From NCBI GenBank assembly GCA_043804755.1, contig JAZDIT010000044.1, positions 24 to 64,023 of the forward strand: 64,000 nucleotides of DNA, given 5' to 3'. The notes below the pieces were generated by a model. It had not been told where the DNA came from. It saw nothing but the letters and a program-made list of their open reading frames with translations, and did not search any database. The position numbers and the translations under genes are program-made. Of the stretch, positions 956 through 38,890 are shown piece by piece (position 1 is the stretch's first letter; each line of letters starts with the position of its first letter). The stretch comes from Patescibacteria group bacterium. GTDB taxonomy: Bacteria > Patescibacteriota > Minisyncoccia > Minisyncoccales > JAQTPW01.

Positions 956-3061
956 ATGCCCAGACTTTATCCAATTGAGAAATACCGTGATTTCGGAATA
1001 ATAGCTCACATAGACGCCGGAAAAACTACAACTTCCGAGCGAGTTTTATTTTACACGGGATTAACCCATAAAATCGGCGACATTGACGAGGGTACGACAG
1101 TAATGGATTTCATGATTCAAGAAAGAGAAAGGGGGATCACGATACAGTCGGCAGCTACGACTTGTTTTTGGAAACCGAGAAAAGAATCGCAGGGTAAAGA
1201 AAACGAATACAGGTTAAATCTTATCGATACTCCCGGCCACATTGATTTTACGGCCGAAGTCCAGAGATCTTTGAGGGTTTTGGACGGAGCGGTTGTCGTT
1301 TTTGACGGAGTTGCCGGAGTTGAACCCCAGTCGGAAACCGTTTGGAGACAAGCCGATAAATTCGGAACGCCGAGAATTTGTTTCATAAACAAAATGGACA
1401 GGATGGGTGCCGATTTCGAGGCCAGTTTGAAATCGATTTGGCAAAAATTGACCCCGAATGCGGTTGCCCTCCAAATTCCGATAGGTGCACAGGAAGATTT
1501 TGCCGGAGTCATCGATCTGATGGATATGAAATCCTTGAGATTCCAGGGGGACATGGGAGAAATTGTTATTGAAGAAGAAATTCCCCAAGACCTTAAGGGG
1601 AAAGCCGCAGAGTGGAGAAATAAAATGATTGAAAAAATTGCGGCAGAAGATGAAATTTTGCTTGAGAAATTTTTGGCGAAAGAAGAAATATCTGTCGATG
1701 AAATGCGCAAAGTCTTAAGAAAATCCACCATTGCATGCAAACTGGTTCCGGTGCTTTGCGGTTCTTCGTTGAAAAATAAGGGAGTCCAGCCGGTGCTTGA
1801 TGCAGTTTGTTTCTATCTGCCAAGCCCCATAGATCTTCCTCCGGTAAAAGGTATAGATCCGAAAACCGGTCAGGAAACCCAGAGGAAGGCTGACGATTCG
1901 GAACCATTTTCAGCTCTTGCATTTAAAATTACGGCAGATCCTTATGTAGGAACGCTGACTTTTTTCAGAGTTTATTCCGGTACCTTGCTTAAAGGCTCAT
2001 ATCTTTTGAACACATCGACCGGTGAGAAAGAAAGAATCGGAAGAGTTCTGAGGTTGTATGCGAATGAAAGAGAAGAAGTCGAAGAGGTTTTTGCCGGAGA
2101 CATCGCAGCTACCGTCGGTCTGAAGAATACTTTTACCGGTCATACGTTGTGCGATGAAAATCATCCTATAATTTTGGAGAAAATTATATTCCCCGAACCG
2201 GTAATCTCCATCAAAATCGAACCTAAGACAAAAGCCGATCAGGAAAAAATGGGCATGGCTTTAAAGAAAATGTCCGAAGAAGATCCGACTTTCAAGGTCA
2301 AAGGGGATTTGGAAACGGGAGATACGGTTATTTCCGGAATGGGGGAATTACATCTTGACATAATTGTCGACAGGATGAAAAGAGAATTCAAGGTTGAAGC
2401 CAATGTCGGCAGGCCACAAGTTGCCTACAAAGAGACGATTCGTCAGGAAGCTGAAGCAGAAGGCAAATACATTAAGCAATCCGGCGGTCGCGGCCAGTAC
2501 GGACATGTCTGGCTGAGGGTTAAACCTAAGGAAAGGGGCCAGGGATTTGAATTTATAGATGGCATTAAGGGAGGAACGATACCGCGGGAATTCATACCTG
2601 CCGTTGAAAAGGGTGTGAAAGAAGCAATGGACAAGGGAGTCATCGCCGGTTATCCTTTCGTGGATGCGGAAGTGACTTTATACGATGGTTCATTCCATGA
2701 AGTTGATTCTTCAGAAGTCGCATTCAAAATCGCGGCTTCAATGGCTCTTCAGGAAGCGGCAAAAAGAGCAAAGCCGGTTTTATTGGAACCGATAATGAAA
2801 TTGGAAGTGATAGTCCCCGAAGAATTTTTCGGAGACGCGATAGGAGATTTATCATCAAGAAGAGGAAAAATCGAAGAAACAAAAGACAGGCTGAATCTGA
2901 AGGTAATCGACGTAAAGGTGCCTTTGTCGGAAATGTTCGGGTATGCGACGGCTTTGAGATCCTTGACAGAAGGCCGAGGAACTTTTACTATGGAATTTGA
3001 CCATTATGAAGAAGTCCCTCCGAATATCACGCAGGAAATAGTCGAGGGTAAGAGGAAATAA
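956..3061 (+). CDS. fusA: Elongation factor G
   Basis: GTPase motifs [18 protein letters not shown]; 701 aa EF-G architecture. Confidence 0.95.
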
Positions 3062-3149
3062 GGAGGGATTTACAACATTGACAAATCGTTTAAAATCACT
3101 AAAATAACATTATAACTTTAATAAGCTAAATAATTAAAAATACAAATCT

Positions 3150-4349
3150 ATGGCAGAAAAAGAAAAATTTTTGAGGGAAAAGCCTCACGTAAATATCGGA
3201 ACGATAGGCCACGTCGACCATGGTAAAACCACAACCGTGGCGGCGATTTTGCATGTTTTAAAACTGAATGGTTTTAAAGCAAACGAAAAAGGAGTCGATC
3301 AAATTGATGCTGCTCCCGAAGAGAAAGCAAGAGGATTGACGATTTCCATCTCGCATCTCGAATACGAGACTGCAAAAAGACACTATGCGCATATCGATTG
3401 CCCCGGCCACGCCGACTATATCAAAAACATGATTACCGGCGCCGCGCAGATGGATGGCGCAATTTTGGTGGTATCCGCTCCCGATGGCCCGATGCCTCAG
3501 ACGAGGGAACACATAATTTTGGCGAGACAGGTCGGATTGCCCGCTTTGGTAGTTTTTCTGAACAAGGTTGATGCGGTTGATGATCCGGAAATCATTGATT
3601 TGGTTGAAAGCGAGGTGAGAGAGCTTTTGAAGAAATACGAATTCCCCGGAGATGAAATTCCGATAATACGCGGATCCGCGCTGAAAGCAATCGCGGCCAC
3701 ATCGGCCGATGATCCTGCCGCAAAAGCGATTATGGACTTGATGAACGCGGTTGACACTTATATTCCCACACCGGTCCGTGAAACCGACAAGCCGTTTTTG
3801 ATGGCTGTCGAAGATGTGTTCACGATCGAAGGCAGGGGAACTGTCGCGACGGGAAGAATAGAAAGAGGAATTGTAAAACCCAATGACGAAGTTGAATTAG
3901 TCGGGATCAAGCCGACTTCCAAAACGACTGCAGTCAGCGTCGAAATGTTCAATAAAATGCTGGATGAAGGAATGGCGGGCGATAATGTCGGAATTTTGTT
4001 AAGAGGTTTGAAAAAAGAAGATGTGGAAAGAGGACAAGTCCTGGCAAAGCCGGGATCCAGTACTCCCCATGAAGAGTTTGATGGCAAGGTTTACGTATTG
4101 TCGAAGGAAGAAGGCGGAAGACATACTCCTTTCTTCACCGGCTATAAACCCCAGTTGTATTTCAGAACTACTGATATAACCGGAGATGTTACTTTGCCGG
4201 AAGGCACGGAAATGGTCATGCCCGGAGACACTGCGCAATTGAAAATAAAATTAATCGCTCCAATCGCCATGGAAGAAAACCAGAGATTCGCGATAAGAGA
4301 AGGAGGAAAGACGGTGGGTGCCGGAGTGATTACCAAGATAATAAAATAA
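3150..4349 (+). CDS. tuf: Elongation factor Tu
   Basis: [18 protein letters not shown] motifs; 399 aa. Confidence 0.96.
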
Positions 4350-24770: not shown

Positions 24771-25160
24771 ATGCCGAGAATCGCAGGGATAAGCATCCCG
24801 GAAAACAAACAAATAGGGATAGCGTTGGGATATATTTATGGAATAGGTCCTTCTTTAAGCAGGAAAATTTTGAATGAGGCCAAGATTGAACCTACGCGAA
24901 AGGCATCCGAATTGACCACGGATGAGGTTTCGCGTCTGAAAGACATTATTGAAAAAAATTACAAAATCGAGGGGGAACTGAGGAGAGAAATTATGATGAA
25001 TATAAAGCGATTAAAAGATATAAACAGCTGGAGAGGCGTTCGTCATATTAAGGGACTGCCGGTCAGGGGACAAAGGACTAAAACAAATACGAGAACCGTC
25101 AGAGGAAATGTCAGAAAAACCGTAGGTTCCGGAAGAAAACCTGCGGCGGAAGCAACGTAA
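24771..25160 (+). CDS. rpsM: 30S ribosomal protein S13
   Basis: MPRIAGISIPENKQIGIALGYIYGIG... Confidence 0.95.
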   Translation: MPRIAGISIPENKQIGIALGYIYGIGPSLSRKILNEAKIEPTRKASELTTDEVSRLKDIIEKNYKIEGELRREIMMNIKRLKDINSWRGVRHIKGLPVRGQRTKTNTRTVRGNVRKTVGSGRKPAAEAT

Positions 25161-25172
25161 TAGATAATCTAA

Positions 25173-25628
25173 ATGGGGAAAAAGCACGTAATTAAAAAAA
25201 GCGAAGAAGAATTGGTGAAAGAAGGGGCTAAGATGGAAGAAAATTTGAAAAAAGAGCCCCAAATAGTCGCGCCATCAAAAAGGATTGACGAGGGGCGCGT
25301 CTATATCAAATCTTCCTATAATAACACGATAATTACTTTGACCGATAAGAACGGCAATGTTTTAGGTTGGGTAAGTTCTGGCGGAATCGGATTTAAGGGA
25401 AGCAAAAAAGCCACCCCGTTTGCCGCGTCGAAAGTCGCGGAAAATGTCGCACAGATTGCCCAAAAGATCGGGGTTTCGAAGATCGCGGTTTTTGTGAAAG
25501 GGATAGGATCGGGCAGAGAATCGGCAATAAGGTCATTAGCAGCCAGAGGATTCGATATCCTTTCCATTAAAGACGAGACACCCATACCTCACAACGGTTG
25601 TCGTCCGCCAAAAACAAGAAGGGTTTAA
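25173..25628 (+). CDS. rpsK: 30S ribosomal protein S11 (N-terminal extension)
   Basis: S11 core ([27 protein letters not shown]). Confidence 0.9.
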
Positions 25629-25650
25629 CAATTTTCGTCACACTCAAATT

Positions 25651-26280
25651 ATGGAAGATCCAAAATGTAAAATTTGCAGAAGATTAGGAACCAAAGTCTT
25701 TTTGAAAGGAGACCGCTGTTATTCTGCGAAATGCGCTTTCTTAAGAAGACCATATCCGCCAGGTCCGAAACACAAAAGAAGGACACGCCAGCTTTCCGAA
25801 TACGGAAAAGAATTAGCCGAAAAGCAAAAATTAAAAAATTGGTATAATTTGAATGAGGGGCAGTTCAGAAATTACGTTAAAAAGGTTCTTTCCAAGCGAG
25901 GAAAAGTGGAGAATGCGGCCGAGGAACTTATCGTCAATCTGGAGAATCGTTTTGACAACGTGGTTTTTCGGCTGGGGTTCGCTCCTTCAAGGCCTCAGGC
26001 TCAGCAGATAGTTTCTCACGGTCTTTTGTCCGTTAACGGAAAAACTATAGATACTCCGTCTCACAAAATGAAAATCGGAGACGTCATAAGCCCTCGTCCT
26101 CAGAAAATTAAAAAAATTATTTTCCAAAATCTTAAAAATATTATTAAAAATTATAAAACTCCGAAATGGCTGCAGCTTGATGCCGAAAAATTGGAAGGGA
26201 AGGTAATCGGAAAGCCGACCATTGGAGAAGCGGCGCCGCCAGCGGAGGTTTCAGTTATTTTCGAATTTTATTCTCGATAA
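25651..26280 (+). CDS. rpsD: 30S ribosomal protein S4 (zinc-ribbon N-terminus)
   Basis: CKICRRLG...CYSAKC Cys4; S4 domain. Confidence 0.92.
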   Translation: MEDPKCKICRRLGTKVFLKGDRCYSAKCAFLRRPYPPGPKHKRRTRQLSEYGKELAEKQKLKNWYNLNEGQFRNYVKKVLSKRGKVENAAEELIVNLENRFDNVVFRLGFAPSRPQAQQIVSHGLLSVNGKTIDTPSHKMKIGDVISPRPQKIKKIIFQNLKNIIKNYKTPKWLQLDAEKLEGKVIGKPTIGEAAPPAEVSVIFEFYSR

Positions 26281-26303
26281 ATTAACCATTAATAAACTAA
26301 TTC

Positions 26304-27089
26304 ATGATTCCCTTACCAACTCAACCAAAAATCGTCAAAAGAGAAGGAAACAAAGTCCTGTTCGAGATAGAGGCTTTATATCCCGGATACGGGGTCACGG
26401 TCGGAAACTCCTTGAGAAGGGTTTTGTTGTCGTCTCTGCAGGGGGCCGCAGTAACCCAAATGAAAATAAAAGGTGTTTCCCATGAATTCTCGACCATCCC
26501 GGGCATCAAAGAAGACGTCATAACGATAATGCTCAATTTGAAAAAATTGAGGTTCCGCGCCTTTTCCGACGAGCCTCAAATGGGCAGACTGCATATAAAG
26601 GGCGAGAAAGAAGTAAAGGGCTCCGATTTTGAATTACCGAGCCAGGTGGAACTGATAAATGGCGACAGCCATATAGCTTCTTTGACCGCCAAAACTTCCG
26701 ATTTGGAACTGGAAATAACGATAGAAAAGGGAATCGCATATTCTCCGCGCGAAGGCAGAAAAAAAGAAAAAGTAGAGATAGGAACGATTCCCATAGATGC
26801 GATTTTCTCTCCGATTAAAAGAATAAGTTTTAAAGTTGAAAATATGCGCGTCGGTGAAAGAACTGATTTTGACAAGCTTTCTCTGGAGATTGAAACCGAT
26901 GGTACGGTAAAGCCGGAAACGGCATTCGCACAGGCTTCAGAAACCCTGGTCAAACATTTTTCATTGCTTGCAGAGACATTTCAAACAGAAGAATCATTAC
27001 CGTCGGCTAAAACCGCATCGGGAAAAAAGGCAAGAAAGAAAAAGACAGTTTCTTCCGTAAAAAAACATGAGAAAAAGAAAAAAGGGTAG
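26304..27089 (+). CDS. rpoA: DNA-directed RNA polymerase alpha subunit, N-terminal domain only (no alpha-CTD; Lys-rich tail)
   Basis: Alpha NTD motifs (GNSLRRVLLSS...); 261 aa ending in KKARKKKTVSSVKKHEKKKKG. Confidence 0.88.
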   Translation: MIPLPTQPKIVKREGNKVLFEIEALYPGYGVTVGNSLRRVLLSSLQGAAVTQMKIKGVSHEFSTIPGIKEDVITIMLNLKKLRFRAFSDEPQMGRLHIKGEKEVKGSDFELPSQVELINGDSHIASLTAKTSDLELEITIEKGIAYSPREGRKKEKVEIGTIPIDAIFSPIKRISFKVENMRVGERTDFDKLSLEIETDGTVKPETAFAQASETLVKHFSLLAETFQTEESLPSAKTASGKKARKKKTVSSVKKHEKKKKG

Positions 27090-27417
27090 AAAATTAAGCC
27101 TGAAAACCGATCAGAGAAAAGCGCTTTTGAGATCGGTGGCAGAATCTCTTTTCTTAAAAGAAAAGATAAAAACTACTGAAGCCAAAGCCAAGGAGGTTGC
27201 CGGTTTGGTGGAAAAAATGATAACGAAAGCCAAAAAAGGCGACATGGCGGCAGTGCGAAGTCTATCGAGATTTTTTTCGGATAGAATAGTGAAAAAGCTG
27301 ATAAAAGAAATCGCACCGAGATATGTGGCCAGAATGGGAGGCTATACCAGAATAATCAAACTTGGACCGAGGAAAAACGATGCCTCAAAAATGGCGATAG
27401 TGGAATTAGTTAAATAA
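27067..27417 (+). CDS. rplQ: 50S ribosomal protein L17
   Basis: L17 family. Confidence 0.9.
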   Translation: MRKRKKGRKLSLKTDQRKALLRSVAESLFLKEKIKTTEAKAKEVAGLVEKMITKAKKGDMAAVRSLSRFFSDRIVKKLIKEIAPRYVARMGGYTRIIKLGPRKNDASKMAIVELVK

Positions 27418-27555
27418 GAACCTTCGCTTCGCGAAGAACCTTGATTCTTCAGAAATAAGAACCTTCGCTTCGCGAAGAACCTCGATTCTTCGGAAATAAG
27501 AGCATTCGCTTCGCAAAGAACCTTGATTCTTCGCAAGCTCAAAAATGAAAATAAA
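27415..27555 (+). repeat. Tandem array of three intercistronic palindromic repeat units (41-nt period), rplQ-rplM junction
   Basis: TAAGAACCTTCGCTTCGCGAAGAACCTTGATTCTTCAGAAA, then a near-identical second unit, then a third unit extended to GCTCAAAAATGAAAATAAA-ATG. Confidence 0.9.
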
Positions 27556-27910: not shown

Positions 27911-28432
27911 ATGGAAAAAACCGTTACCAAAAAAATCGTAAAGAAGGAAGCAAAAGATGTGAAAGAAAAAAAACCGAGAGCGGTGAAGACTAAGAAAAAG
28001 GCTGAAATTTCAGCAGAAGTGGTCAAACTGGTTTCAAAACCCGGAAAATATTTTGAAGCTGTCGGAAGAAGAAAAACTTCAATAGCCAGAGTGAGAATTT
28101 TTCCGCAGGACGAAGGAGATTTTTCGGTCAACGGAAAAACCCTCGATCAATATTTCGGCGACAAAGATCTCCAAACGATAGCTCAAGATTCTCTGAATGC
28201 GATGAATACTTCCGATAAATTCCGCGTTTCAGTCGTATTAAAGGGCGGCGGTTTGCACTCACAGGCCGAAGCGATAAGACATGGAATAGCAAGAGCCTTG
28301 GTTTTATTTAATTCTGAATTCAAGAAAAAATTAAAAAAAGCAGGATTCTTGACGAGAGATCCGAGAATGAGAGAGAGAAAGAAGTTCGGTTTGAAGAGAG
28401 CAAGAAGAGCGCCACAGTGGCAAAAACGGTAA
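27911..28432 (+). CDS. rpsI: 30S ribosomal protein S9 (about 40-aa Lys-rich N-terminal extension)
   Basis: S9 core with C-terminal ...KRARRAPQWQKR. Confidence 0.9.
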   Translation: MEKTVTKKIVKKEAKDVKEKKPRAVKTKKKAEISAEVVKLVSKPGKYFEAVGRRKTSIARVRIFPQDEGDFSVNGKTLDQYFGDKDLQTIAQDSLNAMNTSDKFRVSVVLKGGGLHSQAEAIRHGIARALVLFNSEFKKKLKKAGFLTRDPRMRERKKFGLKRARRAPQWQKR

Positions 28433-28520: not shown

Positions 28521-29204
28521 ATGCTACACGAGATTATAGATAAATTTTATTTGGACAGGCAAAAAGACAAAGATCAACGCCATTTTTATATTACCGATGC
28601 GGGAAAATGTCCGCGGGCTATATTCTTCAAATTCAAAAACGCTCCCAGGGAAGAAATGGGTGCGAATATTCTGAGAATGTTCGATCACGGAGATCACATC
28701 CATCAGTTGATAATGAAGCCTTTACTTTCCGTCAGGGAAATCCATGTGGTCGCTTCCGAAGTGAATATCCCGCCCCAGGCGCTTATTTCGGGCCGGGCAG
28801 ATGCGATTTTAAGCGATGGGAAAGATTTGTATGTTCTTGATATAAAAAGCATGAACAGCATGATTTTTAAAAACCTTGAAGCTGCCAAAGAAGAAAATAT
28901 TGATCAAGTCCAGCTATATTTGCACTATTTCAGGATTCCCAAAGGGTTGCTCTTATACGTTGATAAGGACAGGCTCGATTTGAAAGAGTTTGAGGTGGTC
29001 TATGACAAAGAAAGGGCGGAAAATCTTCTAAAAAATTTGAGTGAATTGAAAGAAAAAATAGATAAAAACACTATCCCTACGAGAATCGCAAGCTATCCCG
29101 ATGATTGGCAATGTAAATATTGCGCTTTCAAAGAAATTTGCAAAATGGCGAATGGCGGTGAGATTGGCTGGGAGGATTTCAAAAAAAAGATAGAAAAAAG
29201 TTAA
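28521..29204 (+). CDS. Cas4-like PD-(D/E)xK nuclease with Fe-S cluster cysteines (DUF83/RecB-nuclease family), standalone
   Basis: N-terminal Cys (GKCP), GRADAIL, LDIK, QLYLHY motifs; C-terminal C-x2-C-x5-C (CKYCAFKEIC). Confidence 0.7.
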   Translation: MLHEIIDKFYLDRQKDKDQRHFYITDAGKCPRAIFFKFKNAPREEMGANILRMFDHGDHIHQLIMKPLLSVREIHVVASEVNIPPQALISGRADAILSDGKDLYVLDIKSMNSMIFKNLEAAKEENIDQVQLYLHYFRIPKGLLLYVDKDRLDLKEFEVVYDKERAENLLKNLSELKEKIDKNTIPTRIASYPDDWQCKYCAFKEICKMANGGEIGWEDFKKKIEKS

Positions 29205-38837: not shown

Positions 38838-38890
38838 GAACCTTCGCTTCGCGAAGAACCTTGATTCCTCGCTAACGCTCAGAAATAACG
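38835..38890 (+). repeat. Intercistronic repeat unit, mreB-gatC junction
   Basis: TAAGAACCTTCGCTTCGCGAAGAACCTTGATTCCTCGCTAACGCTCAGAAATAACG-ATG. Confidence 0.85.

What the first reader, a model, noticed from the sequence alone, without database searches (positions are those of the whole stretch)
26304..27089. RNA polymerase alpha subunit lacks the C-terminal domain
RpoA is 261 aa: the dimerisation/assembly N-terminal domain is intact, but the ~80-aa alpha-CTD that binds UP elements and class I activators is absent. A Lys-rich tail (KKARKKKTVSSVKKHEKKKKG) replaces it and overlaps the rplQ start. Loss of the alpha-CTD implies a simplified promoter architecture; the basic tail might supply non-specific DNA contact.
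Basis: seen in the sequence. Interest (0 to 1): 0.6.

Follow-up and report, generated by a model that had tools for sequence, protein, structure and literature searches.

The report
RNA polymerase alpha without its C-terminal domain
This Patescibacteria (CPR) genome encodes an RNA polymerase alpha subunit that truly lacks the DNA- and activator-binding C-terminal domain and ends in a short, disordered lysine-rich tail; the same truncation has arisen repeatedly among its relatives, but the loss has already been mentioned in print for Parcubacteria.

Summary
The ORF at 26304-27089 (+) encodes a 261-aa RpoA with a complete N-terminal assembly domain and no alpha-CTD. L17 (rplQ) starts 23 nt before the rpoA stop, so there is no room for a CTD.

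It is not a frameshift or an assembly error:
- More than 170 independent relatives have the same architecture.
- A CTD profile finds nothing in any frame of the 64-kb window.
- 13 of 25 Patescibacteria species representatives lack the CTD, against 0 of 54 loci from other phyla.

CTD-containing and CTD-less forms are interleaved on an NTD tree, which indicates at least 3 independent losses. No orphan CTD gene was found. All 5 "CTD-only" database proteins examined are fragments of ordinary rpoA genes, and 0 of 71 assessable metagenomic CTDs is unlinked to an NTD.

CTD-less proteins almost always end in a polycationic tail. Net charge of the last 15 residues has a median of +6, against -1 for the linkers of CTD-containing relatives. 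One clade ends in KKRGRPKK, which resembles an AT-hook.

My best reading is a natural NTD-only alpha, which cannot use the canonical UP-element or class I activator route. The tail probably supplies non-specific contact with upstream DNA; that step is inferred, not tested.

A 2021 paper mentions alpha-CTD loss in Parcubacteria in one sentence. The recurrent loss and the basic tails seem undescribed in the searchable literature.

The parts
26304..27089 (+). rpoA CDS, 261 aa plus stop (NTD-only alpha subunit)
   Evidence: ORF list. PF01193 and PF01000, no PF03118. TIGR02027 250.5 bits against cut-off 227.8. The best 120 homologues are all 212-288 aa with the same two domains.
26304..26987 (+). 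alpha-NTD (residues 1-228): dimerisation and beta/beta' assembly domain; the last helix ends near F226
   Evidence: Aligns to B. subtilis alpha 22-226 and E. coli alpha 26-229. Invariant columns run up to F226 in 18 relatives. The AF2 model places its last helix at 204-225.
26988..27023 (+). Short variable spacer (residues 229-240, EESLPSAKTASG)
   Evidence: Not conserved in alignment A1. pLDDT is below 50 from residue 230.
27024..27086 (+). Polycationic tail (residues 241-261, KKARKKKTVSSVKKHEKKKKG), predicted to be disordered
   Evidence: Read from the sequence. 12 K/R in 21 residues. pLDDT 29-36 with no secondary structure. Its basic character is shared by 139 of 166 CTD-less relatives.
27067..27089 (+). 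23-nt dual-coding overlap: rpoA codons 255-261 plus the stop are read in another frame as L17 residues 1-8 (MRKRKKGR)
   Evidence: Read from the sequence. The L17 N-terminus MR[KH]RKKGRK is conserved in the related loci.
27067..27417 (+). rplQ (ribosomal protein L17, 116 aa); it follows directly and leaves no room for a CTD
   Evidence: PF01196, E=9.7e-34. rplQ starts -35 to +21 nt from the rpoA end in all 13 CTD-less related loci.
24771..26280 (+). Upstream genes of the alpha operon: rpsM (24771-25160), rpsK (25173-25628), rpsD (25651-26280)
   Evidence: ORFs. Pfam S4 and S11. The same order is seen in related contigs.

Best explanation
The gene encodes a genuine, lineage-typical NTD-only alpha subunit of a Patescibacteria (Parcubacteria/Paceibacteria-type) RNA polymerase.

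**Shown.**
- The assembly domain is complete.
- The CTD-coding segment has been deleted, so rpoA now runs straight into rplQ.
- The same deletion has happened independently several times among close and distant relatives.
- No CTD is encoded elsewhere in the 64-kb window.
- No orphan CTD gene was found in the sampled relatives.

**Follows from established E. coli work** (Igarashi & Ishihama 1991; Ross et al. 1993, as cited in PMC8321222). Such an enzyme can assemble and carry out basal, sigma-directed transcription. It cannot recognise UP elements through alpha-CTD, and it cannot be recruited by class I-type activators that contact alpha-CTD.

**Inferred.**
- The roughly 33-residue disordered tail has a net charge of about +10. 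About +7 of that lies outside the rplQ overlap.
- There is one tail per alpha protomer, and each leaves the NTD where the interdomain linker normally leaves it.
- The tail therefore acts as an electrostatic, largely sequence-independent tether to DNA upstream of the -35 element.
- This would partly replace the non-specific upstream DNA contacts of alpha-CTD.
- In a separate clade the tail ends in an AT-hook-like KKRGRPKK, which could favour A/T-rich minor grooves.
For: **The CTD is truly absent.**
- No PF03118 match at E<=1.
- A CTD HMM built from 65 real CTDs finds nothing in six frames of the window (best E=4.9). It also finds nothing in the +/-3 kb flanks of the 13 CTD-less loci.
- rplQ overlaps rpoA here, and abuts or overlaps it in 13 of 13 CTD-less loci.

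**It is not an artefact.**
- All 120 of the best hits, from NCBI, JGI, ENA and Logan, are 212-288 aa without a CTD.
- 13 of 25 Patescibacteria species representatives lack the CTD, against 0 of 54 from other phyla.

**The loss is recurrent.**
- In 100 of 100 NJ bootstraps the window groups with CTD-containing L002, L006 and L010 to the exclusion of the other CTD-less clades.
- Within the window's own superclade there are 4-6 state changes in 200 of 200 bootstraps.

**No CTD supplied in trans was found.**
- All 5 CTD-only proteins examined lie between an rpoA-NTD ORF and rplQ, or directly before rplQ at a contig start. They are explained by frameshifts, a masked run of N, an in-frame stop or a contig end.
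- 0 of 71 assessable metagenomic CTDs is unlinked to an NTD.

**The tail looks selected.**
- K+R in the last 20 aa has a median of 55%, against 13.6% in the NTD; 139 of 166 tails reach 40% or more.
- Net charge of the last 15 aa has a median of +6, against -1 for CTD+ linkers, Mann-Whitney p=6e-8.
- Tails are basic in the 9 of 13 loci where rpoA does not overlap rplQ.
- The tail is predicted to be disordered.
- Six tails carry an RGRP core.
- CTD-containing relatives keep R, N, G and K at positions that I equate from memory with the E. coli DNA-binding residues R265, N268, G296 and K298. DNA contact by alpha would then be the ancestral state.
Against: - Nothing here tests DNA binding or promoter architecture.
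- The window is only about 64 kb of a genome that is probably 0.5-1 Mb (my estimate). A CTD-like gene elsewhere cannot be excluded.
- Three CTD-less RpoAs have no tail at all (L005, P0089, P0211), and about 16% of tails are not strongly basic. The tail is therefore not indispensable.
- Lys-rich extensions are a general theme in this proteome; S9 and S11 have Lys-rich N-terminal extensions. Composition alone is weak evidence for a specific role.
- The last 7 residues are constrained by the overlapping L17 start.
- The window's own tail has no RGRP core.
- Pfam AT_hook scores in relatives are below the gathering threshold (12.5-14.1 against 17.4 bits).
- The NJ trees rest on 225 columns. The exact number of losses is uncertain.
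Confidence: 0.6

Rival explanations
1. Neutral relic. The CTD was lost through genome reduction and the tail has no function of its own. It is what remains of a K/E-rich linker plus read-through into A-rich DNA and the 5' end of rplQ, where the basic N-terminus of L17 yields Lys/Glu codons in the other frame.
For: - Seven of the 21 residues of the K-rich tail segment are dual-coded with L17 MRKRKKGR.
- The HEKKKK motif recurs in relatives, as expected from the overlap.
- Linkers of CTD+ relatives already contain many K and E.
- The tail sequence is poorly conserved.
- Tail-less CTD-less RpoAs exist (L005, P0089, P0211).
- Lys-rich extensions are common in this proteome.
Against: - Tails are strongly basic in the 9 of 13 loci without any overlap.
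- Tails are much more positive than CTD+ linkers (+6 against -1, p=6e-8).
- At least three independent clades converge on the same composition.
- The purine-rich coding strand of this window (positive GC and AT skew) would be expected to give mixed K/E/R/G. The tail ends are instead dominated by K.
Confidence: 0.28
2. The CTD is supplied in trans. A free-standing alpha-CTD, or a CTD fused to another protein, is encoded elsewhere in the genome and associates with RNAP or with promoters.
For: The database holds many 63-118-aa proteins with PF03118 only. The window covers only part of the genome.
Against: - All 5 such proteins examined sit at the normal rpoA 3' position and are fragments.
- Most begin at an internal Met of the last NTD helix (MIxQLKAI...), as expected for miscalled partial genes.
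- Of 80 metagenomic CTD loci, 69 are fused in frame to an NTD, 2 have the NTD just upstream in another frame, and 9 are at contig ends. None is an orphan.
- There is no CTD in six frames of the window.
Confidence: 0.05
3. Sequencing or assembly artefact: a frameshift, a premature stop or a chimeric join has truncated a normal rpoA.
For: Such artefacts do exist in public data (L081-L084).
Against: - The ORF runs directly into an intact rplQ, with no remnant of a CTD in any frame.
- The same architecture appears in over 170 independent sequences from different assemblers and sources.
- The neighbouring genes are intact.
Confidence: 0.01
4. The tail is functional but does not contact promoter DNA. 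It might bind nascent RNA, rRNA or the ribosome (coupling), or an acidic partner protein.
For: Its composition resembles the RNA-binding extensions of ribosomal proteins in the same window. Many tails in the L042 clade have a long acidic stretch before the basic end, which suggests an intramolecular or partner interaction.
Against: No positive evidence. The tail emerges where the alpha linker normally leaves the NTD, and established RNAP structures place that point towards upstream DNA (my knowledge, not tested here). The AT-hook-like RGRP ends point to DNA.
Confidence: 0.06

Closest known systems
Laboratory C-terminal truncations of E. coli alpha, such as alpha-235 and alpha-256 (Igarashi & Ishihama 1991; Ross et al. 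1993; cited in PMC8321222)
   Same: The NTD alone supports dimerisation, core assembly and basal transcription. UP-element response and class I activation are lost. The window protein ends at a position equivalent to E. coli residue ~229-235, followed by a tail.
   Different: The window protein is natural, fixed in a lineage and recurrent. It carries a polycationic tail that the laboratory truncations lack. From my own knowledge, E. coli does not tolerate the loss in vivo.
Alpha subunits lacking alpha-CTD in the extremely reduced endosymbionts Hodgkinia and Tremblaya (PMC8321222)
   Same: Natural loss of alpha-CTD in reduced genomes, with the NTD retained.
   Different: In those endosymbionts the NTD is also eroded, and in some strains rpoA is absent altogether. 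Here the NTD is fully conserved. CTD+ sister lineages coexist, and a basic tail is present. The text I read does not say whether the endosymbiont proteins have basic tails.
Parcubacteria alpha-CTD loss, one sentence in PMC8321222 citing Nelson & Stegen 2015
   Same: The same phenomenon in the same group of organisms.
   Different: No data, distribution or tail description is given. The cited paper's main text and the supplements held list rpoA only as a core gene and do not mention the CTD.
Euglena chloroplast rpoA (Sheveleva et al. 2002, as cited in PMC8321222; paper not held)
   Same: A bacterial-type alpha reported to lack the CTD.
   Different: Organellar context. I could not read the details.
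Archaeal Rpo3 (D) and eukaryotic Rpb3/AC40
   Same: Homologous assembly platform (PF01193/PF01000) with no alpha-CTD.
   Different: The window protein is clearly the bacterial type. It scores 250 bits on TIGR02027, against 20 bits (E=3e-4) on archaeal subunit D model NF001988. It also sits in the bacterial alpha operon.
AT-hook (HMGA-type, PF02178) and Lys-rich tails of histone H1 or mycobacterial HupB
   Same: Disordered polycationic segments that bind DNA electrostatically. An RGRP core is present in the tails of one CTD-less clade.
   Different: The window tail has no RGRP core. The relatives' motifs score below Pfam's threshold. Binding is untested.

Membership tests
Bacterial RNAP alpha subunit, orthologue of rpoA (TIGR02027) | Rpb3/Rpb11-type dimerisation domain (PF01193) with the inserted domain PF01000 | tested here: met
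   PF01193 E=5e-21 (residues 26-219) and PF01000 E=1e-29 (residues 54-169). Aligns to solved alpha NTDs at E=1e-55.
Bacterial RNAP alpha subunit, orthologue of rpoA (TIGR02027) | Score above the curated equivalog cut-off | tested here: met
   TIGR02027 scores 250.5 bits against a cut-off of 227.8. The seven PRK05182-series rpoA models listed (NF003513-NF003519) fall below their cut-offs because the CTD part is missing.
Bacterial RNAP alpha subunit, orthologue of rpoA (TIGR02027) | Position in the alpha operon (rpsM-rpsK-rpsD-rpoA-rplQ) | tested here: met
Canonical two-domain alpha (NTD-linker-CTD) | C-terminal helix-hairpin-helix domain PF03118 with the DNA-binding 265 determinant | tested here: not met
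   No PF03118 match at E<=1. A custom CTD HMM finds nothing in six frames of the window (best E=4.9). rplQ starts inside the rpoA 3' end.
Natural NTD-only alpha subunits (CTD-less alpha of reduced genomes) | Intact NTD, no CTD in any frame, and the next gene follows at once | tested here: met
Natural NTD-only alpha subunits (CTD-less alpha of reduced genomes) | The architecture is conserved in independent relatives, so it is not a one-off lesion | tested here: met
   120 of the 120 best hits. 13 of 25 Patescibacteria species representatives. 170 bona fide CTD-less sequences.
Natural NTD-only alpha subunits (CTD-less alpha of reduced genomes) | No CTD encoded anywhere else in the genome | tested here: inconclusive
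   None in the 64-kb window and no orphan CTDs in relatives. The rest of the source genome is not available.
Natural NTD-only alpha subunits (CTD-less alpha of reduced genomes) | The RNAP assembles and transcribes without alpha-CTD | not testable with these tools
   Needs biochemistry. Inferred from E. coli truncation work cited in PMC8321222.
AT-hook DNA-binding motif (PF02178) | R-G-R-P core flanked by basic residues, scoring above Pfam's gathering threshold | tested here: not met
   The window tail KKARKKKTVSSVKKHEKKKKG has no GRP core and gave no AT_hook hit at E<=1. Relatives with KKRGRPKK score 12.5-14.1 bits against 17.4, which is inconclusive for them.
Archaeal/eukaryotic Rpo3 (D) / Rpb3 | Best match to subunit D models | tested here: not met
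   NF001988 gives only 20.4 bits over residues 179-228, against 250-270 bits for bacterial rpoA models.

The most novel reading that the evidence does not exclude
In Patescibacteria the folded alpha-CTD has been replaced repeatedly, at least three times and probably more. Its replacement is a disordered polycationic tail, and in one clade a bona fide AT-hook. The tail binds A/T-rich DNA upstream of promoters. It would be a convergent, minimal functional substitute for UP-element and upstream-DNA recognition. Closely related CTD+ and CTD- lineages would then form a natural experiment on what alpha-CTD does genome-wide.
Probability: 0.3. Interest if true: 0.7.

Novelty: new member of a known kind. 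Interest (0 to 1): 0.5.

Why it matters
Alpha-CTD is usually treated as a universal part of bacterial RNA polymerase. It reads UP elements and is the docking site for many activators, CRP-type class I activation among them.

A large, environmentally abundant group of bacteria has dispensed with it many times while keeping the rest of alpha intact. This suggests that regulation by activator recruitment through alpha is dispensable in these small-genome episymbionts.

Sister lineages with and without the domain, at 65-80% NTD identity, offer a clean comparative system. They could be used to ask how promoters and regulators co-evolve with the polymerase.

If the basic tails really bind upstream DNA, they would show the simplest way to keep that contact.

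There is also a practical point. From my own knowledge, PF03118 is used as a single-copy marker in some completeness marker sets; I did not check this. If so, its genuine absence would bias completeness estimates for these genomes.

Tried and rejected
1. **Frameshift or premature stop.** Rejected. There is no CTD remnant in any frame, rplQ overlaps rpoA, and the architecture is shared by all close homologues.
2. **Downstream or nearby CTD ORF.** Rejected for the window and for the +/-3 kb flanks of 13 related loci.
3. **Naturally split rpoA, with free-standing CTD genes.**
   - A CTD-profile search returned 120 short PF03118-only proteins.
   - All five contexts examined are artefacts: indel-ridden assemblies (L081, L082), a masked run of 10 N (L083), one in-frame TAA (L084) and a contig end (L085).
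   - A metagenome scan found 0 orphans among 71 assessable loci.
   - The first attempt at that scan, with alignment A2, failed for lack of a conserved stretch.
4. **Lys-rich tail as a by-product of the rplQ overlap.** Rejected as the whole explanation. It is true only for the last 7 residues here, and 9 of 13 CTD-less loci have no overlap yet still have basic tails.
5. **Tail as a leftover linker.** Weakened, because CTD+ linkers are net negative.
6. **AT-hook in the window's own tail.** Not present. It is seen only in relatives and is sub-threshold there.
7. **A trait of all CPR.** Rejected. 12 of 25 sampled Patescibacteria representatives keep a canonical CTD.
8. **Literature.**
   - Four searches that combined alpha-CTD or rpoA terms with CPR or Patescibacteria terms found no paper on the subject.
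   - A fifth search found the one-sentence mention in PMC8321222.
   - The source that paper cites, Nelson & Stegen 2015, does not contain the claim in its main text or the supplements held.
   - The Euglena paper is not held.
9. **Rfam scan of the window.** Only three tRNAs.
10. **Organism names for distant CTD-less representatives.** Only "Patescibacteria group bacterium" or no name at all.

Full report
**1. The observation**

The window carries the end of the spc operon and the alpha operon, in the order infA, rpsM, rpsK, rpsD, rpoA, rplQ, rplM, rpsI (Pfam assignments).

The ORF at 26304-27089 (+) encodes 261 aa.
- Pfam finds the Rpb3/Rpb11-type dimerisation domain PF01193 (residues 26-219) with the inserted domain PF01000 (54-169).
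- PF03118, the alpha-CTD, does not match even at E<=1.
- NCBIfam rpoA models match only up to model positions ~230-253 of 298-344. TIGR02027 still passes its equivalog cut-off, 250.5 against 227.8 bits.
- Against solved structures, homology stops at query residues ~224-244. It aligns to B. subtilis alpha 22-226 and E. coli alpha 26-229.

The NTD is therefore complete and the protein ends where the interdomain linker would begin.

Residues 229-261 read EESLPSAKTASGKKARKKKTVSSVKKHEKKKKG. They contain 13 K/R and 3 E, a net charge of about +10.

The rplQ ATG lies at 27067, 23 nt before the rpoA stop. No DNA is available for a CTD. An AlphaFold2 model (mean pLDDT 63, from a shallow alignment) reproduces the NTD fold, with its last helix at 204-225. 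It gives pLDDT 29-36 and no secondary structure for residues 230-261.

**2. Artefact or biology?**

The 120 best hits among 5.8 billion proteins are 65-84% identical and 212-288 aa long. All carry only PF01193 and PF01000. The names that exist are Parcubacteria, Patescibacteria, Pacebacteria and Nealsonbacteria.

A scan of one genome per GTDB species returned 80 loci. I translated rpoA in each and built a 111-position CTD HMM from the 65 CTD-containing ones.
- The HMM finds no match in any of the six frames of the window (best E=4.9).
- It finds none in the +/-3 kb flanks of the CTD-less loci.
- Of 25 Patescibacteria-type loci, 13 lack the CTD (L001, 3, 4, 5, 8, 9, 16, 17, 19, 20, 21, 24, 42). 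Twelve have a canonical CTD (309-341 aa where the gene start lies within the contig).
- All 54 complete loci from other phyla have a CTD.
- In all 13 CTD-less loci rplQ starts -35 to +21 nt from the end of rpoA.

A frameshift, a premature stop or a downstream CTD ORF is therefore excluded.

**3. Is the CTD encoded separately?**

A profile of Patescibacteria CTDs returned 120 short proteins (63-118 aa) with PF03118 only. This looked at first like evidence for free-standing CTDs.
- Most begin MIxQLKAI..., which is an internal Met in the last helix of the NTD.
- All five whose contigs I inspected lie directly before rplQ, four of them just after an rpoA-NTD ORF.
- Two are in assemblies where the neighbouring ribosomal genes are also fragmented (L081, L082).
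- One follows a masked run of 10 N (L083).
- One follows a single in-frame TAA (L084).
- One starts 13 nt from a contig end (L085).

A metagenome scan with a narrower CTD profile gave 80 loci. In 69 the CTD is in the same ORF as an NTD. In 2 the NTD is just upstream in another frame. Nine are too close to a contig end to judge. None is an orphan.

I found no support for a CTD supplied in trans. The rest of the source genome could not be searched.

**4. Distribution and history**

Among the 150 nearest representatives of clusters at 50% identity, 95 have a CTD and 55 do not. Some of the 55 are evident fragments or frameshift products.

On a neighbour-joining tree of the NTD (225 columns), CTD-less sequences form several separate clades.
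- In 100 of 100 bootstraps the window groups with the CTD-containing L002, L006 and L010, to the exclusion of the CTD-less L016-L024 and L042 clades.
- Inside the window's own superclade there are 4-6 state changes in 200 of 200 bootstraps.
- CTD+ L006 nests among CTD- sequences in 193 of 200 replicates, L010 in 165 and L002 in 126.

I conclude that there were at least three independent losses, and probably many more. The exact number needs a better tree.

The CTD+ relatives keep R, N, G and K at positions that I equate from memory with E. coli R265, N268, G296 and K298, the DNA-binding residues. DNA contact by alpha would then be the ancestral state.

**5. The tail**

Across 170 bona fide CTD-less RpoAs the tail has a median length of 35 aa.
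- K+R makes up a median of 55% of the last 20 residues, against 13.6% in the NTD.
- 139 of 166 tails reach 40% or more.

The tail is not simply the old linker. Net charge of the last 15 residues has a median of +6, against -1 for the linkers of CTD+ Patescibacteria (Mann-Whitney p=6e-8).

It is also not simply a by-product of the overlap with rplQ. In the window, H255-G261 (HEKKKKG) is the same DNA as L17 MRKRKKGR in another frame. The recurrent KKHEKKKK motif of close relatives probably reflects that overlap. But 9 of 13 CTD-less loci have no overlap and still have basic tails. The non-overlapping part of the window tail is also still +7.

Six tails, five of them in a distant clade, end in KKRGRPKK. 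This resembles an AT-hook core but scores below Pfam's threshold.

There are caveats.
- Three CTD-less proteins have no tail (L005, P0089, P0211).
- About 16% of tails are not strongly basic.
- Lys-rich extensions also occur on S9 and S11 in this window.

In the window, the RpoA C-terminus ties with ribosomal protein L2 as the most basic of 68 predicted proteins.

**6. Mechanism**

Shown: a complete assembly domain, a genuine and recurrent deletion of the CTD, and a disordered polycationic tail whose charge is convergently maintained.

From established E. coli work, as summarised in PMC8321222: the NTD suffices for assembly and basal transcription, while UP-element recognition and class I activation need the CTD.

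Inferred: the two tails per enzyme leave the NTD where the linker normally does. They act as electrostatic tethers to DNA upstream of -35, and are perhaps biased towards A/T in the RGRP clade. I give this step about 0.4-0.5.

The main rival is that the tail is a neutral relic (about 0.28). A CTD supplied in trans (0.05), another function for the tail (0.06) and an artefact (0.01) are less likely.

**7. Comparison with what is known**

The closest analogues are:
- laboratory alpha-235 and alpha-256 truncations of E. coli;
- the CTD-less alpha subunits of Hodgkinia and Tremblaya;
- Euglena plastid rpoA;
- more distantly, archaeal Rpo3 and eukaryotic Rpb3.

[quoted passage not shown] That paper's text and the supplements held list rpoA only as a core gene and never mention the CTD. 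Four other searches pairing alpha-CTD or rpoA terms with CPR or Patescibacteria terms found no paper on the subject.

The bare fact of the loss is therefore already in print. In the library I could search, the following appear not to be described: roughly half of the sampled lineages retain the CTD, the loss is recurrent, and polycationic or AT-hook-like tails replace it.

**8. Verdict**

It is a new member of a known kind, natural CTD-less alpha subunits of reduced genomes.

The tail adds a twist that may be new and can be tested. Interest is moderate (0.5). The result would surprise many people who work on transcription, and it offers a natural CTD+/CTD- comparative system. The core fact has been noted before, and the functional part is untested.

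Noticed in passing
window 27412-27533 and 38838-38870: A 41-nt unit is repeated three times in tandem between rplQ and rplM (92% matches). It contains the palindrome TTCGCTTCGCGAAG. The same 33-nt core occurs once more in another intergenic spacer at 38838-38870, where 0 matches are expected by chance. It looks like a dispersed REP-like or terminator-like intergenic repeat.
   Followed up: partly
window 28521-29204 (+): A 227-aa ORF directly after rpsI matches the PD-(D/E)XK nuclease superfamily (PF12705, E=1e-9) and Cas4 (PF01930, E=3.5e-7). It has a C-terminal Cys cluster (CKYCAFKEIC). I did not search for a CRISPR array or other cas genes.
   Followed up: partly
window 27911-28432 (rpsI) and 25173-25628 (rpsK): S9 (173 aa) has about 50 residues before its Pfam domain and S11 (151 aa) has about 40. 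Both extensions are Lys-rich. This is the same compositional theme as the RpoA tail, so Lys-rich extensions on nucleic-acid-binding proteins may be a proteome-wide habit of this lineage.
   Followed up: partly
L081-L085 (public contigs encoding CTD-only proteins P0347, P0321, P0298, P0357, P0285): Public protein collections hold many short alpha-CTD-only proteins from Patescibacteria. All five examined are fragments of ordinary rpoA genes, caused by indel-ridden assemblies, a masked run of 10 N, one in-frame TAA or a contig end. Most start at an internal Met of the last NTD helix.
   Followed up: yes
L042 (rpoA 2992-3825); also P0138, P0173, P0203, P0212, P0073: CTD-less RpoAs in a separate Patescibacteria clade have a long acidic stretch followed by KKRGRPKK at the extreme C-terminus. 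This is an AT-hook-like core; Pfam AT_hook scores 12.5-14.1 bits where it is detected (4 of the 6), below the 17.4-bit threshold.
   Followed up: partly
L005 (rpoA 2228-2905); P0089; P0211: These RpoAs lack both the CTD and any tail. In L005 the 225-aa protein stops right after the last NTD helix, with a 4-nt overlap onto rplQ. The basic tail is therefore not strictly required.
   Followed up: no
P0043, P0046, P0048, P0050, P0051, P0053 (Nealsonbacteria-type, 279 aa): In this group the basic tail is followed by an extra non-basic stretch, ...GRHYTLHPPASGPIKGRKFSL. Its end (GRKFSL) resembles the L17 N-terminus (GRKFSR), but the rpoA-rplQ junction in these genomes was not inspected. Another Nealsonbacteria genome (L010) keeps a full CTD.
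   Followed up: no
window 26280-26304 and 27040-27067: I saw no obvious Shine-Dalgarno sequence upstream of either the rpoA or the rplQ start codon. The sequences are ...TAATAAACTAATTCATG and ...GTAAAAAAACATG. rplQ may depend on translational coupling through the overlap.
   Followed up: no
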